A stretch of 64,000 bases of DNA from Stylophora pistillata (taxonomy: Eukaryota). The stretch is from the NCBI RefSeq assembly GCF_002571385.2, contig NW_019218057.1, positions 354,995 to 418,994 of the forward strand, in the 5' to 3' direction. Below, piece by piece: positions 3,724-59,400 of this stretch. Position 1 is the first letter of the stretch, and every line of letters begins with the position of its first letter. A program made the position numbers and the translations under genes. The notes under the pieces were generated by a model. The model made no database searches. It was not told the DNA's origin and worked only from the letters and a program-made list of their open reading frames with translations.

Positions 3724-4821
3724 CTAGGATTTGACACAAATGGTAGAAGCAGTTTCTCCGCGCACATACGCAGTCATAACAACTTTGCCCTGTCCGTGCG
3801 ATGAGCCGACACGCCTATTAGCATGTCCAATCACACGAAATTTTTCATAAAAGAAGTAGTAAACCTGAAGGCTCATGTTCTTCAATGCCTGGTGGTAATT
3901 TGAACTAAATAAAAACAGAATGACAGGGTTGATTGCTGTACTAAAAGATGGAAACAGGTAGAAAAACAAAGCTAGAAAAACCAAGCACTTGTCTTTCGCG
4001 AAGAGGTCCCGATGAAACATTTTCAGCGACAGATAGATACAGAGTGGCGTCCAGCAGACAAAAAATGCTACAACAATCGATATCAATATTTTCGTGATCT
4101 TCTGCTGCTGTTTTTGTCTCTTGCTGTTCATCTGGTCTTGTGTCTTATCTGCTGCATTTGGACGATTCCTAACAGTTTTTACCACGCGAACATAAAGGAT
4201 TGTCATTACAAAAAGCGGTGCGCAATAAAATATGACAAAACCTATAAAGTTAAAGACAACTTTCAGCAATCTGCTCCAAACAGTTCTGCAGAAAGTTTTA
4301 TCGTCAACTTTGACAACTTCCGTATAAAACACGTATGGAGAACCACAGACTATCGGTATAATCCATGTAAGAACCAAGAAAGTAAGGCGCAGTCCTCTAC
4401 GATCCAACATTACGATCTTCAATGGGAACACAATAGCCACATATCTGTCCACAGAGATAAGAACCAAGCTCAACACAGATACCACTTGTGATATTCCTCT
4501 GAAGTACATTCCCAGTTTGCAAACAACTGAAGCCAAATGATCACTGATAAACTGCCGACTCGTCAACATTCCTTCAGCTGCGAACAGCGGCCAATTAAAG
4601 CATGCGCAAAAAAGGTCGGACACTGCCATGTTGACTATGTAGTAATTAGTACTGGTTTTAAGGTTTGGGGTTTTGATGAAGGATACTATAACAACAAAGT
4701 TTCCGATAAAGGCCGCCAGTGTTACAATGGATAGAAGTACTGTAAATAACGTGGTGACCGCATCAGAGCAAGACGGATCCTGATCTAAAATGTTCGTCGG
4801 TTGAACAGAAGAATTGATCAT
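3724..4821 (-). CDS. Class A (rhodopsin-like) GPCR, neuropeptide receptor-like, single coding exon, 365 aa
   Basis: 7 hydrophobic segments; GN (TM1), MAVSD (TM2), TM3 Cys, DRY, TM4 W, CWTP, NPVIL. Confidence 0.93.
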   Translation of the reverse strand: MINSSVQPTNILDQDPSCSDAVTTLFTVLLSIVTLAAFIGNFVVIVSFIKTPNLKTSTNYYIVNMAVSDLFCACFNWPLFAAEGMLTSRQFISDHLASVVCKLGMYFRGISQVVSVLSLVLISVDRYVAIVFPLKIVMLDRRGLRLTFLVLTWIIPIVCGSPYVFYTEVVKVDDKTFCRTVWSRLLKVVFNFIGFVIFYCAPLFVMTILYVRVVKTVRNRPNAADKTQDQMNSKRQKQQQKITKILISIVVAFFVCWTPLCIYLSLKMFHRDLFAKDKCLVFLALFFYLFPSFSTAINPVILFLFSSNYHQALKNMSLQVYYFFYEKFRVIGHANRRVGSSHGQGKVVMTAYVRGETASTICVKS

Positions 4822-12785: not shown

Positions 12786-13751
12786 ATGAATAATTCTAGT
12801 TTTGCAACGCCTACTCTTTACAGTCCAAGCCTGCCCTGTTCTAACGTGGTGTCCACGCTATTTACAGTGATTATATCCACTGTCACATTCGCGGCTCTGA
12901 TTGGCAATGTTCTTGTCATTGCAAGTTTTCTCATAACTCCTAACTTAAGGACAAGCACTAATTATTACATAATCAACATGGCCATTTCTGACCTCCTTTG
13001 CGCATGCTTCAATTGGCCACTATATGCAGTTGAAGGAATGCTGACAAGAGCCGAGTTCTTCAACCAACGTTCGGCCTTAATTCTCTGTAAACTGGGAATT
13101 TGCTTCAGGGAAATTTCACAAGTGGTGTCCGTGTTATGCTTGGTTCTAACATCCGCAGACAGATATGCTGCTATCGTCCACCCTATGAGGCCAACGGTAA
13201 TGAGAAATGGCAAAGTTAGAGTTATTTTATTGTTGCTTACTTGGATTATACCTTTTGGCTTTGCTTACCCGTATTACATGTTCACTGAAGTTGTAAAAGT
13301 AAACAACCAAACTTTCTGTAGAGTAATTTGGAATATATCAACACACACAGTTTTTAATGCTGTTGGATTTGTTATATTCTATTGTATACCTCTTAGTGTC
13401 TTAATTATTCTACATACTCGCATCACAAAGACACTTAAAAATCGCCCAGATATAGAAAACACAGTCCAAGAACAGCAAATCAGAAGAAGAAGAGAGCAGC
13501 ATCAGAAAATTATGAAAATCTTGACATCGATTGTTGCCGGCTTCTTTATTTGTTGGACACCCCTTTGCGTTTATTTGGCATTGAAAATGTTTTATCCAGG
13601 GTTGTTTCTTCAAGATAGATGCTTCTTACTGTTGGGTTTGTTTTTCTACGTGTTTCCCTCACTCAGCACAGCAATCAATCCTTTTATTCTTTTCCAGTTT
13701 AGTTCAAAATTTCGACTGGCGATGAAAAAAATTTCGTTTTCCTTTTGTTGA
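12786..13751 (+). CDS. Class A GPCR, neuropeptide receptor-like, ~321 aa (probable start MNNSS at 12786)
   Basis: 7TM; DRY, CWTP, NPFIL; start chosen by alignment with the paralog ATG at 20468. Confidence 0.9.
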   Translation: MNNSSFATPTLYSPSLPCSNVVSTLFTVIISTVTFAALIGNVLVIASFLITPNLRTSTNYYIINMAISDLLCACFNWPLYAVEGMLTRAEFFNQRSALILCKLGICFREISQVVSVLCLVLTSADRYAAIVHPMRPTVMRNGKVRVILLLLTWIIPFGFAYPYYMFTEVVKVNNQTFCRVIWNISTHTVFNAVGFVIFYCIPLSVLIILHTRITKTLKNRPDIENTVQEQQIRRRREQHQKIMKILTSIVAGFFICWTPLCVYLALKMFYPGLFLQDRCFLLLGLFFYVFPSLSTAINPFILFQFSSKFRLAMKKISFSFC

Positions 13752-20467: not shown

Positions 20468-21482
20468 ATGAATAATTCCGGTTTTGCAACGCCTTCTATT
20501 TACAGTCCAAGCCTGCCCTGTTCTAACGTGGTGTCCACGCTATTTACAGTGATTAAATCCATTGTCACATTCGCGGCTCTGATTGGCAATGTTCTTGTCA
20601 TTGCAAGTTTTCTCAAAACTCCTAACTTAACGACAAGCACTAATTATTACATAATCAACATGGCCATGTCTGACCTCCTTTGCACATGCTTCAATTGGCC
20701 ACTATACGCAGTTGGAATGCTGACAAGAGCTGAGTTCTTCAACCAACGTTCGGCCTTAATTCTCTGTAAACTGGGAATTTTCTTCAGGGTAATTTCACAA
20801 GTAGTGTCCGTGTTATGCTTGGTTCTAACATCCGCAGAGAGATATGTTGCTATCGTTCACCCGATGAGCACAACGGTAATGAGAAATGGCAAAGTTAGAG
20901 TTATTTTATTGTTGCTTACTTGGATTATACCTTTTGGCTTTGCTTACCCGTATTACATGTTCGCTGAAGTTGTGAAAGTAAACAACCAAACTTTCTGTAG
21001 AGTAATTTGGAATATATCAGCACACGCAGATTTTAATGCTGCTGGATTTGTTATATTCTATTGTATACGTCTTATTCTCATAATTATTCTATATACTCGC
21101 ATCACAAAGACACTTCAAAATCGCTCAGATATAGAAAACGCAACCCAAGAACAGCAAATCAGAAGAAGAAGAGAGCAACATCAGAAAGTTTATGAAAATC
21201 TTGACATCTATTGTTGTCGGTTTCTTTATTTGTTGGACACCCCTTTACGTTTATTTGGCATTGAAAACGTTTTATTCAGGGTTGTTTCTTCAAGATAAAC
21301 GCTTCCTACTGGCAGGCTTGTTTTTCTACTTATTTCCCTCACTCAGCACAGCAATCAATCCTTTTATTCTTTTCCAGTTTAGTTCAAAATTTCGACTGGC
21401 GATGAAAAACGTTCGTATTCCTTTTGTTGATTTCAGTAAATATGGCCGGTTTCTGAGCATGCCCAGGAATCATGAGGGTTAG
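20468..21482 (+). pseudogene. Frameshifted GPCR paralog of 12786-13751
   Basis: One extra base at ~21189 (CAGAAAGTTTATG vs CAGAAAATTATG) splits TM1-5 from TM6-7; also TM5 Pro>Arg, ECL3 Cys>Arg and a one-codon deletion. Confidence 0.85.
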
Positions 21483-24804: not shown

Positions 24805-25833
24805 TTGATGATGAGTTCAAGTGATAGTGATGCGCCATGCCCCAACACCATTTCCATATTTTTCACAACATCTATGGTCTTAGTAAGCATGGTTGCTGTG
24901 CTCGGAAATATTTTAGTGATCGTCGCAGTGTACAAAACTCAAAGTCTTAGGACCAGTAGGAATTACTACTACGTCAACATGGCCATTTCTGATTTCCTTT
25001 CAAGCCTCGCTATTTGGCCGCTTTACCTTACAGACGAAATCATAACAAGCAAAGGAAGTCTGTTCAAAGGGTCTCTGGCAACTGCTGGCTGCAAAGTGGG
25101 TGTATTTTTCAGAATGACGTCAGTTATTGTGTCAATTCTGAGCCTGGTGTTGATCGCTGTTGATAGATTTATCGCTACTGTCTTTCCATTAAAATCAACG
25201 TTGATCGTTGGGAAAGTCAGGGCATTTCTACTCTTTGCGACATGGACGATATCAATGGCATACTGCATCCCAATGCTGTATTATTCAAGAGCCGAAGACT
25301 TTGGTCAGGAAACTTATTGCAAATTTGCATGGAATAGCATTGCTCTCATGATTTATTACATCATTGGTTTGGTGTTGTTTGAAATCGCGCCGATTATTGT
25401 CATTGTCATTCTTTACACGCGCGTTATGAGGGTTTTGCATCAGAGGATTAAACCAGGAACTGGTGAGAGGGGCAGTAGTTCCTATCAAAATCGGAGAAAT
25501 GAGCAAAACCGAAACTTTATGAAGATATTCAAATCAATTGTTGTTACTTTTTTCGTTTCTTTTTCTTTCTTTTTCGTTTACTTGATTTTTAAGATGTCAT
25601 TTCCTGAACTTTTCGACAAAGACAAATGCAAGTGGATTCTTGGGTTCGCTTATTTCGTGTTTCCATCGCTCAGTTCAGTAATTAATCCTATTATTTTATT
25701 TGCATTCAGCACGAATTTCCGACAAGCTCTGCGTACATTGTGGATGTTTTCTTTAAGGAGATTCTTTTTATGTGGCAGAAAAGAGAAAAGAGAACGAGAT
25801 AAAACTGAAGGCCCTTCAGCAGAAGAAACATAA
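24805..25833 (+). CDS. Class A GPCR, neuropeptide receptor-like, ~342 aa (ATG at 24808)
   Basis: 7TM; GN, MAISD, DRF, NPIIL; TM6 CWxP motif absent. Confidence 0.9.
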   Translation: MMMSSSDSDAPCPNTISIFFTTSMVLVSMVAVLGNILVIVAVYKTQSLRTSRNYYYVNMAISDFLSSLAIWPLYLTDEIITSKGSLFKGSLATAGCKVGVFFRMTSVIVSILSLVLIAVDRFIATVFPLKSTLIVGKVRAFLLFATWTISMAYCIPMLYYSRAEDFGQETYCKFAWNSIALMIYYIIGLVLFEIAPIIVIVILYTRVMRVLHQRIKPGTGERGSSSYQNRRNEQNRNFMKIFKSIVVTFFVSFSFFFVYLIFKMSFPELFDKDKCKWILGFAYFVFPSLSSVINPIILFAFSTNFRQALRTLWMFSLRRFFLCGRKEKRERDKTEGPSAEET

Positions 25834-26212: not shown

Positions 26213-26497
26213 TAGAGCGCCTTTTGATTGGGTGTGTCATATGAGCAAAGCCAAACTAACCACAACGGTCAATCAGAAGAAAGAAAATACCTTAAGAGCC
26301 AATGAGAGCTCAAAATAAAAACGAGCAAATTGCCTGAAGTGGGAAAAAATGCGCACGACCAAATCGTGATTGGCTTTAGTTTTGTATCTGATTGGTCGAG
26401 ATTATGGTGTGAGTTTTCTGGACCAATCACAGAGCGAAGTAAAGCAAAACCAACGCAATCTCGGAGGACTTTCGACACTGAATTGAAGATTGCTCCT
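26213..26497. mobile_element. Degenerate MITE rich in CCAATCA/TGATTGG
   Basis: Imperfect TIRs TAGAGCGCCTTTTGATTGGGTGT / ACACTGAATTGAAGATTGCTCCT; interrupts the 38-bp repeat tract. Confidence 0.6.
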
Positions 26498-26896: not shown

Positions 26897-28006
26897 TTAA
26901 AGTTCATCACGAACCATAGCCAGCGTGAGTTTATCAGTGATGTCAACAAAACCACCAATGCATTCACTCATTTTCATCTTCAGCTTTTGGCCTTTCTTAG
27001 CGTCAGCCATGTGAAGTACACAAATGGTAAGGTCTTTGTAGACTCGGAAATAAAGCGATTTTGATTTCAAGTCTTTGACGACAGACCACACTGTATAATC
27101 AGAGGACGTTCCTCGGGGTATATCGACTGTATTCAAGATGTGGAAAGCCTTGATAACTGCTTCTTTACCTGTCTTGACTGGATCAGAAAAATGCGCCATA
27201 ATAGCCGCGCGTACAAATCTCGATGGCGGTGTGAAGTCACCGGGTATTCCCAGAAGTCCACTTCCTTGACCAGTAGGTTTGAACGTCACTTTGCCCAACT
27301 CCAGGGCATCATGGGCCGATTTGGAAAGTTCAACATAATTGCGAATGTTTATTAGATGGAAATCATATGGCGGGGAATTGGTTACGACGCCAAGAGTGTT
27401 GTTGAACACCATTCTCCCCTGTTCAGTAAACTCAATAACGATAGCATCTCCGGAAGCGTCCACGATCGAGTAGTGTAGTTGAAAGATTCCCTTTAACCAC
27501 TCTGGGACATTGGCTTCCCATACGAGAGGGAAAGAATCCTTCTCCAAAGCATCCCTTAATTCCTGGACTGTCCCAAAGTTTCCAAGAATCCACAACGGAA
27601 ACTGCAAAGAAGACACCGCCATGTGGCATTTTTCAACTGGAATTTTCTGGAATTGGGCGAAGCCAACGAAGAGGTTTGCAGCAAGAGAAAGACCAACTTC
27701 ATTTAAACCATCGGTAGCTATGGGCATGTCTAAATCATTCAAAACGTCTAAAACGTCGACGTATGCGATGATATATTTATTCTGCCAATGCAAAGACGAA
27801 TGAAGGAAGCATTCTTTGCTAGGAACCGATGTATGAGAATACTCCCTGGGTTCTACAACGAGGTAATAACCCAAAGCACCGATGAACTCCATACTCCGAC
27901 CGACGACCACTGAGTCATCTTCGGAAGACAAGCTGAATTCAGTGCATGCGTTTGAAACGAAAAACTTGCACTGTATCACGAAGACCATGAAAAGAACCTT
28001 CATCAT
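26897..28006 (-). CDS. Ntn hydrolase, choloylglycine hydrolase/penicillin V acylase family (bacterial type), 369 aa, signal peptide and C-terminal RDEL
   Basis: MMKVLFMVFVIQCKFFVSNA|CTEF (Cys1 at 27946); motifs GRSMEF, DGLNEVGLS, HYSIVDASG, VTNSPPYDFH, GIPGDFTPPSRFVRA, AFHILNTVDIP; no introns in the CDS. Confidence 0.92.
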   Translation of the reverse strand: MMKVLFMVFVIQCKFFVSNACTEFSLSSEDDSVVVGRSMEFIGALGYYLVVEPREYSHTSVPSKECFLHSSLHWQNKYIIAYVDVLDVLNDLDMPIATDGLNEVGLSLAANLFVGFAQFQKIPVEKCHMAVSSLQFPLWILGNFGTVQELRDALEKDSFPLVWEANVPEWLKGIFQLHYSIVDASGDAIVIEFTEQGRMVFNNTLGVVTNSPPYDFHLINIRNYVELSKSAHDALELGKVTFKPTGQGSGLLGIPGDFTPPSRFVRAAIMAHFSDPVKTGKEAVIKAFHILNTVDIPRGTSSDYTVWSVVKDLKSKSLYFRVYKDLTICVLHMADAKKGQKLKMKMSECIGGFVDITDKLTLAMVRDEL

Positions 28007-28023: not shown

Positions 28024-28269
28024 CTACAATTAAACAAAATTTAATATCAAGTTTACATAAATATTTATAGCATGTAGCATGTAGCATGTTTTTGTTGCCG
28101 TTTGAAGATCGAACGAATTAAGAAGATTAAGTTGATACGTACCTCGTTTCCTTCCTTTCGAAGACTGTTTAAAAAGAAATTTAAGTATTCTGCGGGTAAA
28201 ATGATGTGAAGTAACTAGAAACTTTTTCATAAACAGGAACTTATAAGGCTGATTTATTGGATGACGTCA
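28024..28269 (-). promoter_or_regulatory. Putative Pol II promoter (CRE, CCAAT, TATAA) and 5'-UTR intron of the Ntn hydrolase
   Basis: TGACGTCA 28262-28269; CCAAT 28256-28260; TATAA 28241-28245; donor GAG|GTACGT at 28142 and acceptor TTGTAG| at 28024. Confidence 0.5.
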
Positions 28270-29714: not shown

Positions 29715-30704
29715 ATGGATAACTCGAGTTACTATGTTCTTGAGGGTCAGCCGAATTGCTCCCCTATCGCCTCTACTTTGATCACAACAACTATTTCTGT
29801 TGTTAGCATGTTTGCGTTTGTCGGCAATATTTTGGTGACTGCAGTTTTTCTGATAAACAAAACCCTCAGGACAAGTACAAATTATTTCATCGTTAACATG
29901 GCCGTCGGGGATCTATTGTCCACTGCATGTGTTCACATGGCCCGCCGCTGTACGCCACTGAGGGGATGCAGTCCGATAGACATTTCATCGATGATCCAGT
30001 GGCTACAGCTGTTTGTAAAATAAGTCTGTATTTCAGAGGCGTGTCACAGGTTATTTCAGTTTTCGGCCTGGTCGGTATAGTCGTGAGAGGTTCATTGCCG
30101 TAGTTCATCCACTCAAGGCTAAAGCTCTGATGGAAAGGACTCTACCTCGAGCTGTTTTATTGCCACTGACCTGGATCATCCCTTCAGCACTTGCTGTGCC
30201 ATACCTCAGATTCTTAAAGATCGTTACAGTTGATGAGAATCAACCACTTTGCTCGTTTTCGTGGGGAGCAAAGAACCGCTATGTAGTCTTTGCGATTGGA
30301 TTGTCATGTTCTACTGTACTCCCTTGATTTTGATCATCCTTCTTTATACCAAAATCATAAAACGTTTGAAGCAATCAAGACGCGTCACTGATGAACAAGA
30401 CCAAGCGCTGAAAAAGATAAGAAGAAGGCATCGCAAACAAAACCAAATGTTATGAAGGTCTTCGGATCAATTGTCGCGGTCTTTTCCGTCGGCTGGACTT
30501 CAATATCTGTGTATCTAATATCACTTGAAGTGCTTCACCCATCACAAGACACTGAGAGACTCTTGTTTGCTCGTTTTGGCTTTATTATTTTACATACCGC
30601 CATCTTTACCAGCAGCAATTAACCCCGTCATTCTTTTCGTGTCGAGCACCAATTTCCTTAATGCTCTGAAAGTTATGTTCAATCGTTTTTCGCGCCCAAA
30701 GTAG
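29715..30704 (+). pseudogene. Degraded GPCR paralog with several frameshifts
   Basis: Fragments VGN..LRTSTNYFIVNMAVGDL, VCKISLYFRGVSQV, LTWIIP, FYCTPL and AINPVILF lie in shifting frames. Confidence 0.88.
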
Positions 30705-35037: not shown

Positions 35038-35706
35038 CTGCAAATTAAACAAAGAGATTACTACACCTCAGCCTTTTAGAACTACCTCAACAACTTGAAT
35101 CTTATGAACATTGGTATGCGGTCCACATTTACTCGGGCGACTATAGAGGCCTGTTACTTCCAGAGCTTATTCAGATTTCTGCAGATGAAGTACCTCTAGT
35201 CCATTGCAGGGGACTACCTTGCACTGACGTATAATCCTAAATCTATCGAAATCCTGTATCTGAAAGAACCATCGTTTTGCTAATCCAAATTTCATTTGTA
35301 AATTTGTACCGCTAGATAACAACAAGTGCAACGATTCTAGAAATTCTCTTTACCTTGGCTGACGATTAAATAACCTCGTCCAGATGGCCAGCGAATAATC
35401 TCATTTTCCTCAGTTTTGGCCTCACAAGCATACAATCCCTGGTCCTTTTGACTTAAATTCAGAAGTGTAAACACTTGACCCTTTAACATAAGCTTCTTTG
35501 CGTCGATTTTTCTCTCCCTAAAAGGTGCCAGGGGATGGCGTCTGTAATAAAGAGATGCTGTAGCATTTCTGTCGTTAGTGGAACAGTTTATCATCAACCT
35601 CCGGCCCTGGTATCCGTGCAAAATCACATTTGGTTTGACGAGGAAAGTTAATGGTTCTGCAAAAAAGTTGACAACTAAACAAAAGTAGAATGAATAAAGG
35701 GTGAAC

Positions 35707-35740
<34 letters not shown>

Positions 35741-38700
35741 GGTAACAAGGTAATTGGTTATACAATGAATATATGAAGTTCATATATTTTGAACTGCGGT
35801 TCATCGTATTTGATTTATCATCACGGGTTTATTACGAAACAACTTAATGGCCTGCTCCCAGTCGGCTTGTTAGCTCAATTGGTAGAGCGCTGCACTAGTA
35901 TCGCAGAGGTCAGTGGTTCGAATCCCGTACAGGCCTGATTTTTTTCGGGTCTGATTTTCGCTATTGCATAAATTGCGCTATCTACTGCGAAGGATCGTGC
36001 ATCATACGTGTAATTGGCTACATCAACTAAGTTGAAACTGTAAATTTGCCACCGTAACGAGTTAAAAAGCTGACGTTTCGAGCGTTAGTCCTTCTTCGCT
36101 CTGACGAAGGGCTAACGCTCGAAACGAAAACAAAAGTAGGTTTGCTGGTGGTCTACAACTGAAAAGCCTTTTGGACATAAGAAGTCTCGTAAGCTTTTCT
36201 TTCCTTGGGAACTTGAGGCCATGAGAAAAGATTCTTCATCGGCCTTCGAAATAATGAATGCAACATAGGAGGCGTATTTTGTAAAAAAAAATTATAGTTC
36301 AATTGAAAAAAAATCTGCAATGATGATAAAATGAACAAGGGAACCCTCGTAGGCCGTAGGATTTATTTAAAATACCTCTAACATGTAATGACGTCATCTT
36401 GTGGTCTGTCTTGTCAAACACCCTCAACACACATTTGTAAACACCAGCATCTTCTGGCTGAACATTTGAGATCTTAAGGATGGCTCTAACTTGATTTGTG
36501 GACCTGTCCTTATCAACAGTAACAAGGTTACTTGGGACAGAAACATCCTCTTTGTTGGTTTGTTTTACCCACTGTAGTTTGGTTTCTGACACACCCTCTG
36601 ATTCACAAGTAATAGTTACTTGTTGTCCTTGTCGTACAGTAACAGCTGTTTTAGGCCTTAAAACGAAGTGATTTGGTAATCCACCTGCAACAAAATAAGG
36701 GAAAAATACAAGATTCATATTTGACAGGAAAGTGCCCAGACTGTGCGTGTTTGTGCCGCTGGAGCTCAAAGTCACAGGTCTCCCACTGGAATATTTCATA
36801 ACCATGTGCTATTTACTATGACCAATTCTGAGTAACGAGTCAACAACATATTATCCGTTATGACCGCTTCTATATAAAATGGCCTTTTTTTTATTCAATT
36901 TCTCATAATTTTTCAAGTCACGGGAAAGTTGATGTTTTGTTTGGAGACAAATCAATTGGCTAAAATCCTGTGAATTACCTTACCTCGAATAGGAATCAAA
37001 TATCCTCTGCCATGTGGCCATCGAATGTTCCAACCACCCCGATTACTCGCCTGGCAGGAATATATTCCAGCATCTCTGCGTTCAACATTTAGAAGAGTAA
37101 AAACTTTTCCTTTCCTCAATAGTTTATTTTCTCTAAGATTCAGCTCATGGAAGGAAGCAAGCGGATGCTGTTTGTATAGAAGAGACACTGTTGCTTCCCG
37201 ATCATTTGTCGAACAGTTAATGACTACATTCTGGCTCAGATATCCTCGTATGATTACTGGTGACTGGTCGAGAAATTCTAACGGTTCTGTTGGGAAAACC
37301 AAGAATACGCACATGCACAACTTTGACGAATTACAGAAATTTTAGAGTCTCAATGAGATAGGGTGAGTAATATCATTGGCAGTCCAGACTTAAGGTGTAG
37401 CTATCTTGGGTTCTAATGCAATTATAGAACCCTTTTGTTGCCTTTTAAGGCTGCTCAGATATGAATTTTTATCTGATACACGTGTTTATTGTTTATCAGC
37501 AATCTTACAATAAGAATAGTTTCAGTTCTGGGCCCTTTGTTCCTTCTGCCCATCCTACTCTGAGAATGTTAGCTCATGAGACACCTAAACTTGCACAGAG
37601 ACTTAAACTGGTCCAAGTCTGTCTTCATCTAACATGTCCGCTAAGATGCACGTGCACATGTCTGCATCGCCAAACAAGCATTCCATCACGTGGGCTTACT
37701 TCTCACACTCCTTATTCAATCTACTCGTTTCTTTAATCTCGTAAACTATTGTAATCAGGTTTCCTTTAGTATCAAGAAAGGGAATTGAATTCACTTCACC
37801 TTCATTAATAATCAAATATCCTGTTCCCGGAGGCCACCGAATCTTGTCATTTGCTTCGTTTTTAGCCTCGCAGATGTAGAATCCAGCATCTCTTAAACCG
37901 ACGTTGAGAAGTTCGAACGCCTGTCCTTTCTTTAAAAGTTTTTTTTCTTCTGGCTTCAGTTCGGCAAAGGCCACAAAGGGATGGCGCCTGTAAAAAAGGG
38001 ACACTGTAGCATCTTGGTCATTGGTGGAACAATTTATCAGTATTTCTTTGCCCAGGTATCCTTTTAAAATATTCTGTGGTTTTTTAACAAAGGCCAAGGG
38101 TTCTGCCGAGAAAAACAAGTGCAGTAGATGAGGAAATGTCAAAATAATTCTTATGAAATTTGAATAACTTCCGAAAAATTAAGAATAATAAAATAGTACA
38201 AATTTCTTACCACTTCGAACAAGTTTGATGATATGAAAATCACTTCCCAGTTTATTAGACGCCAGACATCTGAAGCTCGCAGTTGGTTGATTACTTTGAA
38301 CTTTGACCACACTCTTTTTTATCGGTAAGTTTGGAGGAGACATAAGTAGACTTTCAGGTACGGGCATCCATTGACTTTCAACTGGCTCACAAGCGCTTGT
38401 GTTCAAAGTGAAACAATCCATGTTTTGATATTCCCACTTGAATGTTGGCAGAGGATTCCCTTTGTTCACCACACAAGACACTTTCGACCCCTTGCCGTTA
38501 CCACTGAGCACCTTGTATGGTTTTTGTATTAATCTGGGCGGAGCTATAAAGGATAATTAACACGTGGTGTTTTAGTTTTACAGAATATAAAAATTAATGA
38601 TTTGGGTAAAGGGGTAAAGAAAGGCGACTTTGCTGGAGAATTGCATTTGCAGTAACATTGCCAAACCAGAAAAAGTGAGCAATGAACAAGACAAGGCCCC

Positions 38701-41700
38701 AGAAATCTGCTTCTTTTCATAAACAAACATGATTTTTGTTTACTTTCCGGACCGTTGGGCCACCGACGTGAGTGTCAGGTAACCAAATTTTGAGTGCAAA
38801 TACAAAAGTTAACATCGCTTTAAGTTTAATCATACCTAAGACGTTTAGATTGATGATTAATTTTGCAGGTTGGGCGTGACCGTTTGTTGCAACACATTCA
38901 AATTTTCCTTGATCTCTTGAGTATACTGCACTTCGTATTTTAAGAACTTTTATAGTCCTAGTATTCTTTCCCCGAAACTTGCGTTCTTTAGGCTCTTCGT
39001 AAACTTCATACGCAATTCCCTGGCATCTGACATCACTTAAATTGGAACACTTCATCGTAGGCAGCTTCTTGCCGTTTCTGTACCAGTCTACGTCAGGTTT
39101 GTGGATTGCTGTTGCTATGCATTTGATGACCTTTATCGAGCCTTCTCTTACGGTTTTTTCTCTGACAATGGTTGGCAGTTCGTCTGTTGAAATGTTAGAA
39201 CAACCATTTATTGCAATTTTCTGCTAATAATCATTACACGATCTTTGTTTCCACACGAATCATTTTCATTAATCCAAAACAGAAAAAAGAAAACAGAATT
39301 GTACACAGAGAAATGTTTCGACAACCCCTTTTTAAAAATTATACCTCGAAATAGCTTTTCACTGATCACTATGTTCAGTTTAGCTGTTTAAATGAGGCTT
39401 GATTGAAGTGGAATATGGGTCTTTAAAAATGAATTTGTAACTTCCTCTTTCCGATAACTTTTTTTTTTTTTAATTTTCTACGGCTGTTTGCTGCGGTTGG
39501 TAACCTTAGTGAAAAGGATAATCAGAGAAATTAAGATTTCAAACCTCGATGCTGGACATCTGGTGCTGTTGTGATAAGCAGAGGAGTTGTAAAGTCTGAG
39601 GTGACGTCTGGGAAACTAGTGATTTCTCTAGTTGGGTTGTAAGGAGGTTCTGTGGCGTCCGATGTTGTTATGACTTCTCGTACTGCTGTGGCGTATTGAT
39701 TTGCCACAGTGACAGTCTTCGTAGTTGTAGCCTCTACTGTTGGTGCAGCATCTTTCGCAGCTGAAAAATATGGATGTTTTGTGGAATCTGTGGGCGCTGA
39801 AGCTCTTGTGGAATCCACCATTGCCGTGGAAGCTGGGGTTTCAGAGATACCTTGGATTACTGTCATGAGTACAGCAACTGTACTATCTGAAGCTGGGGTA
39901 GAATCTGATGTTGCTGTTATAACTTCGGCTGTTGAAATATCTGAGATTGACTCGGTAACTGGCACCGTTGTAGTCTCTGAAGCTAATGTTATATCTGTAT
40001 TCGTTGAGGTCTCTAAGGGTGTTGTCATGTGTGGCTCTGCCGTGGTGTACGATGGTGATGCGGTATTCTGGGCTATCTTAGTATCTGAGACAGATGTTGT
40101 GGCGTGTGGAATCGCTGAAGTATCTGAAACCATTGTAATTTTCCGTGTCTCTTTAGTTTCCACGGTTGTTGTGATAGCTGAAGTTGTTGTGGTATCTGAG
40201 AATTCTGCGCTACTGCGAGGGAAAGTTGTTGGAACGATACCTGCTACTTCTGATGAATCAGCAGTAGTGTCTGGAATGGAAGAGATGCTCACTACAGCAT
40301 CGGTATTTGAGATTGGCGCTGTATTTGAAACAGTAGTGGAAGCGGTTGACCCTGGGACTGCTGTAACTGGGGTTATTGCTGATGTGGTGACTGAGGTTTC
40401 TATGGTATAGGGGTTAAAGTTATCAGAGCTTGTTGAAGTGTCTGAAGAAGAAACAGCATTCGTGACTGAAGCGTTATCTGAGGTTGACGCCAACTTAGAA
40501 GTTAATTTTGAATCTTGGGTTGACGTGCTACTTATGGAAACTTTGCTCTCTGCAGTAGAAATGGTAAAAGGGGTAGCTGTGGTGTCCGTGGCAGCTGCTG
40601 ATGTGATATCAGGGGCAGCTTTGGCAGTGGCAGAACCCGAAGCATCAGTTGTACCTGTGACTGTAGTAGGATCTAGGGTCGTTAGTGTATCAGGATCTTT
40701 AGCGTTGTTACCTAAGGTTGGAGAAGCAGCTAAGTTGGGTCTGGTATCTGCGGTGACTGCTGATGTGGCATCAGAAGTTTCTGTGGCAGGTAAAGTAGCA
40801 CTAGTGTAAGGAGCTGTTTTATCACCTGAAGCAGTGGTACTTTCTCCGACTGAAGAATGATGAAATGTTGATGTCGAATCATCCGGAGACGCTGTGGTAG
40901 CTCTGATCGACGAGGTAGGTTGGGAACTTTCGGAGTCAAGGGCTGTTGTGGTATCTTCAGTGGTAATGCTATCAAGGGCTGTTGTCCTATCGGAAGCAGC
41001 AGTAGTCTTCAGGATTGAAACAGTTTTTAAAGTTTGTTTTGTGGCTGAAGTCACTGTTGTATGAAAAGTTGCTGAGGTAACTGGGGTGGCTGCGGTATTT
41101 AGGGTACCCTCGGTATCTAAAGTGGTAGTTGTTTTAGGGACCAGCGTAGGATGTGATTTCGATGAAAGATCTGATGTTGATGTGGTGACTGGGCCAAAAG
41201 TGGTACTTTCAGCTCCAGCGGCAAACGAGCCAGGTGTGCTATCTGGAGTCTCTGCATTAGGGGCAGTTGTGGTATGTATTGATGGAAGAGGTTGGCCTAT
41301 GTGACAATGATTTAAAAGTTACATAAGTAATTTATTAAGGATAATTAATTGATAAACAGAAGTGGTCAATTATAACCTTGAGTTTGAGATAAAAGATTAA
41401 CATGTTATTACATACCTTCCATGTAAACGTTAAGTTCTGCAGTGGCCTGTATTTTTCCCAAGTAGTTTTCTGCAAAGCACTGATAAGGTCCCATGTCGGA
41501 CAGCACAAGCATCTTGACCAGCAAGTATCCGTCTCCAATATCGTTGAAATAAGATTCCTCAATCACGTCTCCATTTCGACTCCATGTGATAACCGGTTTG
41601 GGTATTCCGTCAGCAAAGCATTCAAACAGTGCATTGGAATCGGAGTAAGCATGGACATTATTTGGTTTCTTGATGAATACAGGGGGATCTGTGGAATAAA

Positions 41701-44700
41701 ACAAAAACCTTGATCATATACCATGTTTACTCGTCTAAGCCTGCCGTCGGTTATCAGAGCCTCTTTCGATTTTTTCAGTCGGTGAACAGGCGCAGAATAC
41801 AATTGTAGAGCAAGAAAGGAAAGGACGTTTTGGATGAGTCACGCAAACCTCTACCATTTTTTTTGTGCCACGTTCACCCACTGAACACGTGGAATAAGCT
41901 TTGTTTATTTAATATTTAAAACTCGGATAAGGCAGTTTTTTCGGGTGGCGGTTGCCCAAAAATCACCAATCTGAAAAATGATTTATTTCCCCTTTATGTG
42001 GAGATGCATGTTAATAACCTGTTCGAACTGATATAACTTACGATGTACTTCTAGCTTGATTGAAGCTTCTTTAATGCCGTTTCGTGAAATTGCGCGACAG
42101 GTGTATGTTCCTGCCTGTTCCTCAGTTACTGATTCAATCATAAGGTTGTTCTCCCCAACAACAGAATAACCACTCCCGAGCACCACAGGCAACCCATCTA
42201 ATAGCCATGTGACTCTTGGCTTAGGAAATCCGTTTGCAATGCATTCGAGTATGAAAATATCTCCAGCGATGACTCTTCTCTCGTCAGATGTGACGGAAAC
42301 AGTTGGACCTCGAGGAAACTCGCTATCTATGCACCGGAAGAAGGGAAAATATAGCATAATAACGCACTCAACCAGGATACGACAACAAAAGAAATCGAAT
42401 TTCAGCCATGTAACTAACTGACGTATTGACTTACTATGATTCCTCGTAAAACACCCGTGCAATACAAGGCATTGGTGTGTTATCTAACGAATGACCAACC
42501 TAACAATCAATATAAAGGCTGTTACTCTTTCTCAGCAGCAGGGGACTTCTTCCATGTTTCTAGAACCTCATCTGAAAACTTGTGTGGTTTGAAATTAGTT
42601 TGTCGACAGTCCTCTCAACCTCCCTGAGTGTTTGATGACTGGTACAGAGCCTGATGTGACATTAAATGTCTCTTTCCCCAAACATAAGGACAGCCTTATT
42701 TTGGGGTTATTTGAAAAGTACGATAGAAACACCTCCTCCTTATAGGACCAGTTTACGAATGGGATGATAAACTACTGATACGCTGAGTAGAAAAGGACTT
42801 TCCATTTAATTTTGCGGGCCAACTTTTGGCGCACTAGCATAAGAAATGGTCAACGATGACATGCTACCCATATATATCCTAAATATATCTTATATGTCCT
42901 ACCCGTTATGACTTTAAGTGACGCTGTGATTGTACTCGTGTAACTCGTTTTAGTCACAGTATTTTCTGCCGTACATTCATAGTCTCCTTGGTCATTAAAA
43001 CTGCTCTCGGCGATCTGTAAGGCTCCATCGGAAGTTGTTGTAAAACGTCCTCTAGACTCAATGAAGTTATTTTCTCCAAGCTTTCTCCATCTAACAACGG
43101 CTTTCGGTGTTGAATCGTTTACGTTGCAATAAAACCTTGATGTGTCTCCAAATGAAACTTGTAATTTGGATGGAGTAACAGCCACCTTGGATGAAATTTC
43201 TGTTGATCAAAAGCACATGCCATTTGATATTCTTACAGTCACTTTTGTCTTTGTTTCTTTCTTTAGTTCTTTTATGTGTTGATTCAAGACATTCAAGATG
43301 AATAGCTGCTCGGTCATTTTATCAACCGGAGGCAAATTCACCCCACGGCACGACTTCACTTCTTATCTTTGAAGTGTTCTCCAATGACGTTTTTCATAGA
43401 CGCACTAGGAGCGAAGATACTGTACCGCATTCGAAATGCAGCACTCCACAAACTTCCCGATTCGCCTTCAGGTTTCTGTAAGTTTGACTCACTACGAATG
43501 CTAGATTACCTATTAAACATCATTTGCTACCCGTTTTTTCGGTATAAATAAAACCTCAAGCAATGTCATGGCAATTTTTTCTGACGGAGACGAGTTTCCT
43601 TTTCAATTTAGTAACAGAGGCTTGATGTGACTTACCAGCAACAACGAGACGAGCAGTTCTGCTCAAAATCTGGAAATCTAGATCCATGTCATTACGTGTT
43701 AACGCCTCGCACTGGTAGATTCCTTCATCTGAATTTTCAGTAGTGTTATGATTAACTTTCGAAAAATACAAAGACCCGTCCGGCCTTATCATTCTCCGGT
43801 CATCTTGCGATAAATCGAGTACAATACCATTTCTCCTCCATGCTATAGCGGCCTTAAGGTTTCCGCCTACCAAACAGTCCAGGACAGCGGATTTACCCCG
43901 CTGCGCATACGTGTCTCTCGGCTCCTTGATGAAATACGGTGCTCCTGTTGACCCCAATACTTCTAAATACATAGAATGATTAAAAAGACATGAAAATAAG
44001 ATAGAATGAATAAATAAATGAGTACATAAGTGAACATGAACACACGTATTAGTGTAACTGTGTTTATTTCAAGCCTTGGTCCTATTCCTTCTTTCTACTC
44101 ATACGTCCACTAAGATAACGCCACAATGTGAACTTAGCTTAACATTATAAAATTTTCTCGGCTGATTTTCTCCGCTGCAGTATTGATTACTAAAAAACAT
44201 ATTCAGTATACCTCTGAACTAATAATGAAATTTTCCTTTGTTCTGCAACGAGATAAAGTCTTAAACAGAAGACTGAATCCAATATAAGTTTGACTGAAAC
44301 CTTGATTCGTTCAGCTGGATGAAAGGTAAATGTCGAAGAAAAAAAGAAGCGAATTGTTTAGAGGACTGCTTCATGAAGCAAGCCAAAAAGTAAATATATT
44401 GCATTACCAATACTAACGGCCAGAATTTGTGATGCAATTACTTCTGAAAATAAATCAATTAAAGAATCAACTATGAATAAAAAAGAGTCGAGACCCTTCA
44501 CTTTAACATTTACAGTCGAAATAGTTCATTGCACAAGACCTACATAATCGTTTGCTTTTACGTTAAATATTGAATTTTAATTGCCTCGAATTGCTTGGCT
44601 GTAATATGCTTTACATTTGCTCACCCGACGACACCGGAAATTGCAAGCTATTCGTACCCTGCAGTGGAATAAGGATAGTTCGCCAAACTCGTCAAATTTT

Positions 44701-53400: not shown

Positions 53401-56400
53401 TAAAGTTTCTCAATCCTCCATCCCAAGTGTTAAGTGGATTCATAGGTATGAACATTGATGTCAACTGTTCAACGAATGACCCATATGCAACAGTTCAGCT
53501 TTTCCACTCAAGAGACTTTGTAACATATACTGAAAGGACTTTGTCTCCTGAGAAACTTCACCTAAACAAACAAGTTTTCACATTGTTAAACCTTGGTGTA
53601 AAGGATTCTGGACAATATAAGTGTAAAGCAACAGATGGACAACAAACCATTGAATGGCCAAGCTCTCATGGATTCCTCTTCCTTTCTCAAGGTAGGTGGA
53701 ACACAAATACATCTTATGTTATGTATTATTTTGCAATTCTAAACCTAGCCGGCAGTATATTAGAAACTTAAGTGCAGAGTTCATTAGTGTTTCATCGTAA
53801 ATCATCCTTTTCAATTTCTTTAATGGCCATACAGGAGTTTCTCTTTCCCCAGAAAACCTTTATCGAGTTTAAGGAAAAAGGTGTCAAAAGGATATAACAT
53901 TATGTATTACATGCTATTTCTGTTTGAGTTCACTCCATATTCCCAAAACCTATCTTTTAAGAAATGCTTTTAGAAAACAGTTTGGTGAGTTCAAATTAGA
54001 TCTTTGGTGTATACAGGCTAATTTTCCGGTGAGATTGCATGAAATTCATGAGGTTGCTAAGATTAAAATGCTATGTGATTTGTAAGAGTTATCAATTAAT
54101 AAAATAATTTTATCTAAATGAAGTTTACGTATGATGCACGATCCTCGCAGTAGATAGCGCTATTTATGCAATAGCGAAAATCAGAACTGAAAAAAAACAG
54201 GCCTGTACGGGACTCGAACCACTGACCTCTGCGATACTAGTGCAGCGCTCTACCAATTGAGCTAACAAGCCAACTGGGAGCAGGCCGTTAAGTTGATTCG
54301 TAATAAACCCGTGAAAGTGATAAATGAGACAATGAATATATGAAGTTCATATATTTTGAACTGCGGTATTAGATACGTATGATGCACCGTACAGGCCTGA
54401 TTTTTTTCAGGTCTGATTTTCGCTATTGCATAAATAGCGCTGTCTACTGCGAGGATCGTGCATCATACGTATCTAATACCGCAGTTCAAAATATATGAAC
54501 TTCATATATTCATTGTATCTCATAAATGAAGTTTATAGTAAACAACACATTTAACTGAAAAGGTCACTGGGGTAGACAGTTTTGACAATGTTGATGAACA
54601 TGTCATTTAAAAGTGCTGTGTTTTCTTACAGGAAAACTGCCAGATATTATATTTGATCCACCAAGACCAATCACTGTACAGCAAGGTCAAACTGGAAATG
54701 TCACATGTCAAACTGTTGGTTGGTCAGTCAGCAAACTGCTTTGGAAAAAGCGAAGTAACTCTGGTGACCAAACTGTTCCAGACAGCAAGGTTGTACATGT
54801 TATAGATAAAACTGAAAACATGGTAAAAGCAGTCCTTACCATCACTAATGCTCAAACTCAAGATAGCGGTGAATATAAATGTGTGCTGTCGGCTTTCAAC
54901 AAACAGGATTATAAGATTGCCAATATACGTGTGGATGGTAAGCTGTGAACTATTTTTATAAAGCAGCATTACGTAGCATTCTTATTAAGCCACTAACTTT
55001 GTATTCCGCGTGAAGCCATTACTATAGTTGAGTACACAGAATCATATTCTACTCTCTAGAGCGTTATCAAAGTTTTATGTTTAAATGGTTAACTTTTCTC
55101 TTTTTAATGAAGGTTGTAATGTCTACTTGGATAAATGTACATGTAGCATGCTGGTCAGCATGGTGCTGGCAGGGGCATTTGGTTGAGTTTGAGAGAAAGA
55201 TTACACCCTTTTCTATCACAGTGTCCTACTCCACTCAGCGGTCTAAAGGGCTCCTGGTTAGCTTTTAAGGAACCTGAAAAAATATTCGTTATCCACATAG
55301 TAATGTCGATTGGAAAATTCCCGACAATAGGCAATGTTACTGTTTCCCACCTGTCTCAGATTTTGCCTATATATCGGGAGAACAACAGATGTCTTTCCCA
55401 GATTATTCCACACGCTATTTTTCATTCAAAAGTCAGGGGTACGCTAATAAGCAACTAGCAGTAGGACTGGTAAGCTGGAGCCGGAGGAACAATGGGCACA
55501 GTGGACCAGTGGCACAATGAGTACAAGGACCAGTGGAACAGTGGAGAGAGAGGATCACAGGAACAGTAGGCACAGAGGACCGGTGGAACAGTGGGTAGAG
55601 AGGACCAGTGGGCACAGAGGACCAGAGGAACAGTGGGAAAATAGGACCAGAGGAACAGTGGGCACAGAAGACCAGAGGAACAGTGGGTACAGAGATTCAG
55701 ACTGTTCCTCTGGTCTACTGTACCCACTGGTCCTCTTTTCCCACTGTTCCTCTGGTCCTCTGTACCCACTGTTCCTCTGATCCTCAGTGTCCACTGTTCC
55801 TCAGTGTCCACTGTTCCTCTGGTCCTCTGTACTTACTGTTCCTTTGTTCCCACTGTTTCTCGGGTCCTCTCTGCCCACTGTTCCTCTGTGCCCACTTGTC
55901 CTCTGAACCCACTGTTCCTCTGTGGCCACTGGTCCTCTGAGCCCACCGTTCCTCTGGTCCTCTATACCCACTGTTCCACTGGTCCTCTGTACCCATTGTG
56001 CCACTGGTCCGCTGTGGCCACTGTTCCTCTGGTCCCCTGTGCCCACTGTTCACTGATCCTCTCTTCTTACTTTTCCACTGTACCACTGGTCCTCTGTATC
56101 CACTATTCCACTAGTTCTCTGTACCCACTCACTTTACCCTTCTGCTACATCTATATGTTAATTATTAGATATTTCAGAACCCAGTATATGAGAGACTACC
56201 CAATATATCTCGAATAATCGCCCTTCATCGCATAAGTCTGGGACGTGCTGGGAAAATAGAAACATTCCTGATTTTCCCAATTTGTCGCTGAACATCCCCA
56301 GACAGTTGGGGATCTGTACAATCTTGAGTTTTCATTTGCCAGAAAAGTCTGGCACTGTGGGGGAACAGTCAAATCACTGATTGTCTGGGATTTTCCCGTC

Positions 56401-59400
56401 ATGTGAAAACCAGGCTTAAAGCTTCATCTTGGCAATGTTTACTTTGCTGTAGGTGTGGAGGCCTTTAAGTTTCTCAATACTCCATCCCAAGTGTTAAGTG
56501 GATTCCTAGGCATGAACATTGATTTCAACTGTTCAACGAATGACCCATATGCAACAGTTCAGCTTTTCCACTCAAAAGACTTTGCAACATATACTGAAAG
56601 GACTTTGTCTCCTGAGAAACTTCACCTAAACAAACAAGTTTTTACACTGTTAAACCTTGATGTAAAGGATGCTGGACAATATAAGTGTAAAGCAACAGAT
56701 GGACAACAAACCATTGAATGGCCAAGCTCTCATGGATTCCTCTTCCTTTCTCAAGGTAGGTGGAACACAAATACATCTTATGTTATGTATTATTTGATTT
56801 ATCATCTACGGGTTTATGTCGAATTAATTTGATGGCCTGCTCCCAGTTGGCTTGTTAGCTCAATTGGTAGAGCGCTGCACTAGTATCGCAGAGGTCAGTG
56901 GTTCGAATCCCGTACAGGCCTGAAATTTTTTTCAGGTCTGATTTTCACTATTGCTCAAATAGTGCTTTACTGCGAAGGATCGTGCACATATACGTTTCAT
57001 AACCGCAGTTCATACATATGTTTCATATGTTTGTTGTTGTTTGATTTATCATCTACGGGTTTATGTCGAATTAATTTGATGGCCTGCTCCCAGTTGGCTT
57101 GTTAGCTCAATTGGTAGAGCGCTGCACTAGTATCGCAGAGGTCAGTGGTTCGAATCCCGTACAGGCCTGAAATTTTTTTCAGGTCTGATTTTCACTATTG
57201 CTCAAATAGTGCTTTACTGCGAAGGATCGTGCACATATACGTTTCATAACCGCAGTTCATACATATGTTTCATATGTTTGTTGTTGTTTGATTTATCATC
57301 TACGGGTTTATGTCGAATTAATTTGATGGCCTGCTCCCAGTTGGCTTGTTAGCTCAATTGGTAGAGCGCTGCACTAGTATCGCAGAGGTCAGTGGTTCGA
57401 ATCCCGTACAGGCCTGAAATTTTTTTCAGGTCTGATTTTCACTATTGCTCAAATAGTGCTTTACTGCGAAGGATCGTGCACATATACGTTTCATAACCGC
57501 AGTTCATACATATGTTTCATATGTTTGTTGTTGTTTGATTTATCATCTACGGGTTTATGTCGAATTAATTTGATGGCCTGCTCCCAGTTGGCTTGTTAGC
57601 TCAATTGGTAGAGCGCTGCACTAGTATCGCAGAGGTCAGTGGTTCGAATCCCGTACAGGCCTGAAATTTTTTTCAGGTCTGATTTTCACTATTGCTCAAA
57701 TAGTGCTTTACTGCGAAGGATCGTGCACATATACGTTTCATAACCGCAGTTCATACATATGTTTCATATGTTTGTTGTTGTTTGATTTATCATCTACGGG
57801 TTTATGTCGAATTAATTTGATGGCCTGCTCCCAGTTGGCTTGTTAGCTCAATTGGTAGAGCGCTGCACTAGTATCGCAGAGGTCAGTGGTTCGAATCCCG
57901 TACAGGCCTGAAATTTTTTTCAGGTCTGATTTTCACTATTGCTCAAATAGTGCTTTACTGCGAAGGATCGTGCACATATACGTTTCATAACCGCAGTTCA
58001 TACATATGTTTCATATGTTTGTTGTTGTTTGATTTATCATCTACGGGTTTATGTCGAATTAATTTGATGGCCTGCTCCCAGTTGGCTTGTTAGCTCAATT
58101 GGTAGAGCGCTGCACTAGTATCGCAGAGGTCAGTGGTTCGAATCCCGTACAGGCCTGAAATTTTTTTCAGGTCTGATTTTCACTATTGCTCAAATAGTGC
58201 TTTACTGCGAAGGATCGTGCACATATACCTTTCATAACCGCAGTTCATACATATGTTTCATATGTTTGTTGTTGTTTAACATATCTTATGTTATGTATTA
58301 TTTTGCAATTCTAAATCTAGCAGTATCCATTACAAACTTAAGTGCAGTATTCATTAGTGTTTCATCCTATAACCTTTTCAATGTCTGGAATGGCTATACA
58401 AGAGTTTCTCTTTCCTCAGAAAACTTTTTCCAGTTTGAGGATAAAGGTGTCAAAAGGAAATAGAATTATGCAGGTTATTTCTGTTTGACTTCAAACAATA
58501 TTGCGCACTTTCTGTGCTATGTCAAATCGTGTGGTGCGGATATTTTCGCAATTACTGAAACCTGGTTCACCGAAAGGGACTCAGCTCATAGAGCGGAGGT
58601 GACTCCGTCAGGCTTCGTGTTATATGATCACGCGAGATCTGGAAGCTCCGGGGATTGTACAGCCTTATTGTGCCGTGACAGTATTAGCGTGACGAAAATC
58701 GCGGCCGGCGAGAAAAAGTCATTCGAGTTCTCTGAGTGGATAATTCTTGGTCGGGGCTCTCGGAAAGTCCGCGTCATTGTTATGTATCGCCTGCAGTATT
58801 CTTCTTCTCGTCCTGTGACTGTTGAGTCAATCATTCTTTCCTCAGAGCCGTTGCTGATAATGGGCGACTTTAATATTCACGTAGATGTTGTCGGGGATCC
58901 TGTTTGCACGAGATTTCTTGATCTACTCGAAGTGATGGATCAGCTGCAGCATGTTACTACGCCAACTCACGAGTCGGGGCACACATTAGATCTAATTATC
59001 ACACGGCAATGCGGCGCCCTGGTCAAGGATCCACCTGTTAGAGATTGTCATAGATCTGATCACTGGTCTGTTACTTGTCTGCTCAATCTCGACAAGCCAA
59101 TAATCACCAGGAAGACGAAAACGTTCAGAAAGATTAAGAATATCGACACTGCTGCACTGCCTAATGAGCTTGCTGCTTTAGATTTGTGTAGTTACACTCC
59201 AGACGATCTCAACGATCTGGTGCACTGTTATAACACCACTCTTGCGTCTGCATTAGACCGTCATGCTCCACTTGTTACCAGATCTATACCAGTGCGTCCT
59301 CTGGTTCCTTGGTTTAACAACGATATTAAGGTAGTGAAAAAGGAGAGGCGTAAGGCAGAGAGAATATGGCGGCGCACTAGCCTCCTTTCTGATTTACGGA

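What the first reader, a model, noticed from the sequence alone, without database searches (positions are those of the whole stretch)
26897..26911. The Ntn hydrolase ends in RDEL, an ER-retrieval signal on a bacterial-type enzyme
Seen: C-terminus ..LTLAMVRDEL-stop, plus a 20-aa signal peptide whose cleavage (VSNA|C) would directly expose the nucleophilic Cys. Known: RDEL is a functional KDEL-receptor variant. Inference: the enzyme was retargeted to the ER lumen rather than secreted. That would point to an intracellular role (detoxifying membrane-permeant acyl amides, or lipid signalling) or to regulated release.
Basis: partly seen in the sequence, partly recalled or inferred. Interest (0 to 1): 0.7.

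Follow-up and report, generated by a model that had tools for sequence, protein, structure and literature searches.

The report
Coral bacterial-derived acylase with ER tag
A coral enzyme of bacterial-type descent, from the family reported to destroy bacterial communication signals, ends in an endoplasmic-reticulum retrieval-type tag that most of its coral relatives share and its bacterial relatives lack, so it likely works inside coral cells rather than in the mucus.

Summary
The minus-strand ORF 28006-26897 encodes a 369-aa penicillin V acylase-type Ntn hydrolase, identical to a Stylophora pistillata protein. It ends VRDEL-stop, and the catalytic Cys is residue 21. The tail was unchanged in 8 of 8 sequencing runs laid, and a 5' intron was spliced in 4 of them.

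In the clade that holds all named cnidarian homologues, 86 of 124 hits end in a KDEL-receptor-type tetrapeptide, against 1 of 204 outside it (a cercozoan). Among named stony-coral proteins the count is 29 of 31. Fifteen variants occur (HTEL, HDEF, HDEL, RTEL, RDEL, KEEL and others). They vary as the mammalian receptor code allows, which points to selection on the signal.

The signal peptide ending just before the Cys is inherited from bacteria, not new. The family is known (AmNtNH1, coral quorum quenching), and one citing paper places it in mucus. The likely AmNtNH1 isoform ends in KEEL.

Best reading: an ER-retrieved lumenal acylase that cleaves membrane-permeant N-acyl amides. Localisation and substrate are untested, and the primary paper could not be read.

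The parts
26897..28006 (-). Coding sequence without introns, 369-aa choloylglycine hydrolase / penicillin V acylase-family Ntn hydrolase (P0001)
   Evidence: PF02275 E 4.5e-59; 100% identical to Stylophora pistillata PFX21497.1, same cluster as XP_022797102.1
26897..26911 (-). RDEL + TAA: KDEL-receptor-type retrieval motif at the extreme C-terminus
   Evidence: unchanged in 8 of 8 runs; model residues 367-369 have pLDDT under 50, consistent with a flexible end
26912..26944 (-). D-I-T-D block and linker before the motif; the close bacterial-type relatives end 7-10 residues from the start of this block, clade members 11-21
27947..28006 (-). Predicted 20-residue signal peptide ending S-N-A, inherited in type from bacteria
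   Evidence: no predictor run
27944..27946 (-). Cys21, the N-terminal nucleophile of the mature enzyme
   Evidence: aligns with Cys1 of 3pva; invariant in 39 of 39 rows
27626..27811 (-). Span from Cys66 to Cys127, a clade-specific cysteine pair (likely a disulfide)
   Evidence: both present in 98 of 101 clade rows that cover both sites, both absent in 194 of 198 outside rows; the bond itself was not tested
28024..28142 (-). GT-AG spliceosomal intron upstream of the main ATG
   Evidence: splice sites; skipped in contigs of X2, X10 (polyA RNA on record), X6 and X11 (RNA guessed), 3 studies; retained in X1, X4, X15; not reached in X3
28143..28230 (-). Upstream exon part with an in-frame ATG (35-residue basic extension if used)
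   Evidence: RefSeq model P0279

Best explanation
This gene encodes a penicillin V acylase-type cysteine amidase ending in RDEL, which is likely imported into the ER, likely activated there when the signal peptide is cut off in front of Cys21, and likely held in the ER and early Golgi by the KDEL receptor, where it would cleave membrane-permeant N-acyl amides, most likely bacterial acyl-homoserine lactones that have diffused into the cell. Shown: the gene, its splicing, the fold family, the tail, the tail's family-wide conservation and its absence from bacterial relatives. Inferred: import, cleavage, retrieval in coral cells, one gain of the tail at the base of the clade with later losses, and the substrate. 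ER retrieval alone I put at about 0.8; AHLs as the working substrate of this paralogue at about 0.55.
For: The tail ends 86 of 124 clade hits versus 1 of 204 outside; 86 of 107 versus 1 of 139 among rows that reach the last conserved block; 29 of 31 named stony-coral proteins from 11 species. Fifteen different tetrapeptides occur, with H/R/K/Q at -4, D/T/E/N/S at -3, E (D twice) at -2 and L/F at -1. That fits the tolerance measured for human receptors, and RDEL, HDEF and HTEL bound ERD21 as well as KDEL (PMC2140024). Entropy is 1.6-1.8 bits at -1/-2 against 3.2-3.8 at -5 to -12, while linker length varies. The motif is found on both sides of the clade's first split, in trees built without the last 12 residues. 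The genome has a KDEL receptor gene. Catalytic Cys21, Arg37, Asn210 and Arg263 are kept. A relative, AmNtNH1, is described as inactivating AHL (PMC12496222 passage). Human PON2, a lactonase, is mainly intracellular, on nuclear envelope and ER, although that paper calls the localisation data controversial (PMC6209399 passages).
Against: No localisation data in any coral were found. One citing paper suggests these hydrolases work in the mucus, and another that they filter the local biofilm (PMC12960093). 38 of 124 clade hits lack the motif. Some are cut gene calls, but others are full length: the Hydractinia proteins, an H-D/T-E-L-R group, P0068/P0082, P0081/P0092 and others. At 70% identity only 17 of 34 clusters, and at 60% only 9 of 22, hold a member with the motif. 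The protein is only 48% identical to the likely AmNtNH1 isoform, so AHL activity is not shown for it. The receptor code comes from human cells.
Confidence: 0.55

Rival explanations
1. The tail holds an active enzyme in the ER as a store that is released to the surface on demand, through ER calcium loss, saturation of the receptor after strong induction, or cell rupture. The enzyme then quenches quorum signals outside the cell.
For: Release of KDEL-tailed proteins on ER calcium depletion (exodosis) is described for mammalian cells (search listing and abstract starts only). AmNtNH1 is induced by immune challenge and rises around settlement. Receptor saturation is offered as a cause of mixed localisation in PMC2140024.
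Against: No coral data. The family keeps motifs of the efficient type (81 of 86), where weak ones would suit easy release.
Confidence: 0.22
2. The enzyme is ER-resident but works on the coral's own or its algal symbiont's acyl amides (N-acylethanolamines, ceramides, N-acyl amino acids), not on bacterial signals.
For: The ER is a site of lipid-amide metabolism, and the family includes NAAA and acid ceramidase (recalled; a UniRef name reads 'Choloylglycine hydrolase/NAAA'). This paralogue has lost a loop near residue 300 that most relatives keep and is 48% identical to the AmNtNH1-like protein.
Against: The only activity reported for the family in the passages seen is AHL inactivation, and the reported expression follows immune challenge and settlement.
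Confidence: 0.13
3. The tail only slows transit so the oligomer can fold, or is hidden in it, and the enzyme is secreted constitutively, as the citing papers assume.
For: Bacterial relatives carry signal peptides. Several full-length clade members lack the motif or carry one extra Arg after it, so retrieval is dispensable in some lineages.
Against: The motif is held at the exact C-terminus across paralogues about 40-50% identical and across 15 variants. The tail is low-confidence, probably free, in the monomer model; an oligomer was not modelled.
Confidence: 0.1

Closest known systems
AmNtNH1, the Acropora millepora quorum-quenching Ntn hydrolase (Mason et al. 2024 Curr Biol, PMID 38942019; paper not held, known here from citing passages, and from recall)
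   Same: Same cnidarian clade and anatomy. The A. millepora protein P0313 (XP_029207487.2/XP_029207489.2, accession numbers next to AmNtNH1's XP_029207486.1) lies in the clade and ends in KEEL.
   Different: A different paralogue, 48% identical. Citing papers treat the enzyme as acting in mucus or on biofilm and the passages seen mention no retrieval motif. That P0313 is an AmNtNH1 isoform is inferred from adjacent accession numbers only.
Bacterial penicillin V acylases and bile salt hydrolases (PF02275; 3pva, 2bjf)
   Same: Fold (Foldseek E 3.8e-28), N-terminal Cys, conserved Arg/Asn/Arg. The closest bacterial-type relatives also have a signal peptide ending A|C.
   Different: Below the NCBIfam cut-offs for both equivalogs. 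It adds a C-terminal linker with a KDEL-type motif and a Cys66/Cys127 pair, and sits in a spliced nuclear gene.
Mammalian ER-lumen detoxifying hydrolases with HXEL tails (carboxylesterases CES1/CES2; recalled) and intracellular lactonase PON2 (PMC6209399)
   Same: Hydrolases of lipophilic small molecules kept inside the secretory pathway; HTEL is the commonest tail in the coral family (37 of 86).
   Different: Unrelated folds and chemistry, and of ancient animal origin. PON2 is held by a transmembrane segment, not a KDEL tail.
Plant KDEL-tailed defence enzymes stored in ER bodies and ricinosomes (recalled, no call)
   Same: Defence hydrolase with a KDEL-type tail; precedent for the store-and-release rival.
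   Different: Other enzyme classes, plants, not gained by transfer from bacteria.

Membership tests
Choloylglycine hydrolase / PVA Ntn hydrolases (PF02275) | Profile match over the curated cut-off, whole domain | tested here: met
   201 bits versus cut-off 20.4, profile positions 1-305 of 316
Choloylglycine hydrolase / PVA Ntn hydrolases (PF02275) | N-terminal Cys nucleophile with conserved Arg, Asn and Arg; Ntn fold | tested here: met
   C21, R37, N210, R263; model matches PVA structures. Glu40 replaces PVA Asp20, as in close bacterial-type relatives. Roles of the residues partly recalled.
Bacterial BSH or PVA equivalogs (NF038245, NF058572) | Score over the curated cut-off | tested here: not met
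   186 versus 350 and 172 versus 600 bits
Cnidarian NtNH (AmNtNH1) family | Falls in the cnidarian clade, nested among bacterial-type sequences | tested here: met
   44-row clade, SH-aLRT 100, holds all named cnidarian rows. Quick trees without bootstrap; the donor lineage was not resolved.
Cnidarian NtNH (AmNtNH1) family | Hydrolyses acyl-homoserine lactones | not testable with these tools
   Reported for AmNtNH1 only
KDEL-receptor clients (soluble ER residents) | Receptor-compatible tetrapeptide at the extreme C-terminus | tested here: met
   RDEL-stop; fits the Prosite pattern; bound human ERD21 like KDEL
KDEL-receptor clients (soluble ER residents) | N-terminal signal peptide and no transmembrane helix | tested here: inconclusive
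   Hydropathy only: N-terminal 9-mer 2.8; best later 19-mer 1.4. No predictor; an upstream ATG is possible.
KDEL-receptor clients (soluble ER residents) | Motif conserved in orthologues and paralogues | tested here: met
KDEL-receptor clients (soluble ER residents) | Steady-state ER localisation that depends on the tail | not testable with these tools
   needs cell work

The most novel reading that the evidence does not exclude
After cnidarians took up a secreted bacterial acylase gene, they added an ER-retrieval tail and a new cysteine pair at the base of the family. This made an exported enzyme into an intracellular sink for bacterial quorum signals, so coral quorum quenching, AmNtNH1 included, happens inside host cells and not in the mucus. 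Some lineages later re-routed paralogues, for example to a membrane anchor in Hydractinia.
Probability: 0.4. Interest if true: 0.72.

Novelty: new variant of a known kind. Interest (0 to 1): 0.56.

Why it matters
The one described coral quorum-quenching enzyme family is read by citing papers as a mucus or surface defence. A retrieval tail kept across the family says the default location is probably inside the cell. That changes what the enzyme can do: shield host cells from signal molecules and drain them locally, or be released under stress such as heat, instead of constantly clearing the mucus. It is also a clear case of a transferred gene gaining a eukaryote-only address label, with natural variants (KDEL-type tail, extra Arg, hydrophobic tail, no tail) to compare. 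A tail-deletion experiment tests it directly.

Tried and rejected
Contamination: rejected. The gene has a spliced GT-AG intron, is found in polyA RNA contigs, and lies among GPCR-like and immunoglobulin-domain ORFs (by inspection); GC3 is 0.47 against 0.39-0.45 for three neighbours.

Chance motif: rejected. The Fisher p of 2e-47 is not used because the rows are related.

Signal cleavage exposing the Cys as a novelty: rejected, bacterial relatives have it.

Splice forms without RDEL: none seen in 8 runs, but contigs show presence only.

Mason et al. 2024 is not held, so whether it mentions the tail is unknown. Supplements of PMC12924552 were not available, so the AmNtNH1 accession could not be tied to P0313. 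The paper reader closed, so single-cell expression data for this gene were not seen.

Paper searches that found no report of the tail: 0 papers; 3 listed, passages read in 2 through; 4 listed, none on this family by title; KDEL + quorum quenching, 3 listed, unrelated by title. One search listed no coral mucus proteome naming the enzyme (25 of 1,025 listed; supplements not searched). One search found nothing.

The protein atlas gave no answer, so unnamed clade rows stay without an organism. The second KDEL-receptor exon was not compared. No complex was folded. Earlier-findings look-ups returned nothing.

Full report
Observation. The minus-strand ORF 28006-26897 gives a 369-residue protein, P0001. 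Its last codons, 26911-26897, read R-D-E-L-stop. It is a PF02275 hydrolase (E 4.5e-59), under the cut-offs of both NCBIfam equivalogs. Cys21 aligns with Cys1 of penicillin V acylase 3pva, and the AlphaFold model (mean pLDDT 82.7) matches PVA and bile salt hydrolase structures. It is 100% identical to Stylophora pistillata PFX21497.1.

It is a coral nuclear gene. A GT-AG intron lies at 28024-28142. Contigs of runs X2 and X10 (polyA RNA on record, one study), X6 and X11 (RNA guessed, two further studies) skip it; X1, X4 and X15 keep it; the X3 contig stops before it. All 8 runs laid (of 24 listed) cover the stop region without a listed difference, and none shows a joint in the coding region. An in-frame ATG at 28230 could add 35 residues, so the start is not settled. 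The genome holds three further matches on contig C482. The complete one ends in RTEL; of two 3' fragments one ends RTEL-stop and one has lost that stop and runs on eight residues.

The tail is a family trait. I examined 328 proteins: the listed hits (which show only the best 120, 150 and 120 of thousands), with P0001 standing for P0002, plus P0313. Trees built without the last 12 residues give one clade with all named cnidarian rows (43 of 166 rows, FastTree 100; 44 of 69 rows, SH-aLRT 100; no bootstrap). I assigned the other hits by best BLAST match to tree-placed rows, which may misplace fragments. Using the pattern [KRHNFWYQSA][not P][ED][LFM] at the C-terminus, 86 of 124 clade hits match and 1 of 204 others. 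That one is a cercozoan protein ending KDEL, outside the clade, so probably a separate gain. One more outside row, P0262, ends VTEL and does not match. With the strict Prosite pattern the counts are 21 of 124 and 1 of 204. Among rows that reach the last conserved block the counts are 86 of 107 and 1 of 139, and 28 of 41 after reduction to 80% identity. Of 31 named stony-coral proteins from 11 species, 29 match; the two others leave the family profile early and look like wrong last exons. The internal chance rate is about 1%.

The pattern fits selection on a signal. Fifteen tetrapeptides occur (HTEL 37, HDEF 15, HDEL 6, RTEL 6, RDEL 5, KEEL, QDEL and KTEL 3 each, KDEL 2, six singletons). Raykhel et al. 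2007 (PMC2140024; abstract and three results sections read) found K, R, H, N or an aromatic effective at -4, any residue but Pro at -3, E favoured at -2 and L or F at -1, and found RDEL, HDEF and HTEL equal to KDEL for ERD21. The coral variation stays inside those limits. Positions -1 and -2 have 1.6-1.8 bits of entropy and -5 to -12 have 3.2-3.8. The nine closest bacterial-type rows in the alignment end 7-10 residues from the D-V-T block; clade rows add a linker of variable length. The motif occurs on both sides of the clade's first split (P0089, P0126, P0389, P0390, P0393 on one side), so a single early gain with later losses is the simplest reading. The tree needs 12 changes in all and cannot itself tell gain from loss. 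A KDEL receptor gene is in the genome (one exon E 5e-39 to KDELR2).

Against. 38 of 124 clade hits lack the motif. Part are cut gene calls, but full-length lacks exist: the Hydractinia proteins, four rows with an extra Arg after H-D/T-E-L, and several unnamed rows. Only 17 of 34 clusters at 70% identity, and 9 of 22 at 60%, hold a member with the motif. So the trait is near-universal in named stony corals and patchy in deeper branches. No localisation was found or could be run.

What is inherited and what is new. Bacterial-type relatives have signal peptides ending just before the Cys, so activation by signal cleavage is inherited. New in the clade are the tail and a Cys66/Cys127 pair, present together in 98 of 101 clade rows covering both sites and in 0 of 198 such rows outside. 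A disulfide is likely but was not tested.

Mechanism. Inferred: the signal peptide brings the chain into the ER, cleavage frees Cys21, and the KDEL receptor returns escaped enzyme from the Golgi. An active amidase then sits in the ER lumen. The family's described activity is AHL inactivation by AmNtNH1 (passages in PMC12496222, PMC12924552 and PMC12960093). Longer-chain AHLs cross membranes (recalled), and the human lactonase PON2 is mainly intracellular (PMC6209399, passages). I therefore favour an intracellular sink for acyl-amide signals (0.55) over a stress-released store (0.22; exodosis papers seen as listings only), host lipid-amide metabolism (0.13) and constitutive secretion (0.10). 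P0001 is only 48% identical to the AmNtNH1-like P0313, so its substrate is open.

Known versus new. The family is published (Mason et al. 2024; not held; its bacterial-transfer claim is recalled). AmNtNH1 is XP_029207486.1. P0313 carries the adjacent accessions and ends in KEEL, and all 4 named A. millepora proteins seen carry a motif, so AmNtNH1 probably does too. My searches found no report of the tail, but the primary paper and its supplements are the likeliest place for one and were not seen. Verdict: a real, conserved feature and a new variant of a known kind; interest 0.56.

Noticed in passing
P0099, P0325, P0326 (Hydractinia symbiolongicarpus): These paralogues end in a strongly hydrophobic 11-residue tail (mean Kyte-Doolittle 3.5 for P0099) after small residues, like a GPI-anchor signal, instead of a KDEL-type motif. 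This suggests surface display in that lineage.
   Followed up: partly
P0221 (Cercozoa sp. M6MM): A protist homologue outside the cnidarian clade also has a signal peptide and ends in KDEL, likely an independent gain of the same tag. Unnamed P0262 ends in VTEL.
   Followed up: partly
P0070, P0093, P0122, P0391 (unnamed): One subgroup ends H-D/T-E-L-R, with one extra residue that may weaken or abolish retrieval; sister row P0067 ends HDEL.
   Followed up: no
L005:3505-3534 versus L005:6737-6742 (G000:C482): Two near-identical 3' fragments of a paralogue; one has the stop after RTEL, the other lacks it and runs on eight residues, masking the motif. The region is gappy.
   Followed up: partly
window 26897-28006; L002; L003/L004: This gene and the complete C482 paralogue have no intron in the coding region, whereas the partial C482 copies appear interrupted near residue 236; intron loss or retrocopying is possible.
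   Followed up: no
window 26976-27964: Of 12 coding differences seen in contigs of other individuals, 9 change the amino acid and 3 do not; none touches the catalytic residues, the Cys pair or RDEL. Several individuals also have a 9-base insertion just upstream of the ATG at 28006.
   Followed up: partly
window 28143-28230: The upstream in-frame ATG would add a basic 35-residue extension almost free of acidic residues; the extensions seen in paralogues do not resemble it.
   Followed up: partly
window 3724-4821, 12786-13751, 20468-21298, 24808-25833, 29715-30023: Cluster of intronless rhodopsin-like GPCR ORFs around the gene (by inspection; not scanned). The one at 24808 is convergent, and the two transcribed regions meet at a short repeated element near 26283-26462.
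   Followed up: no
window 35337-43972 and 53448-63125; 58782-61363: Immunoglobulin-domain exons with a Thr-rich stalk (an adhesion or receptor gene), and a broken non-LTR retrotransposon-like stretch (by inspection).
   Followed up: no
P0376 (Acropora cervicornis KAK2548013.1): A 1483-residue model ending QDEL, about four enzyme lengths; probably tandem paralogues fused by gene prediction.
   Followed up: no
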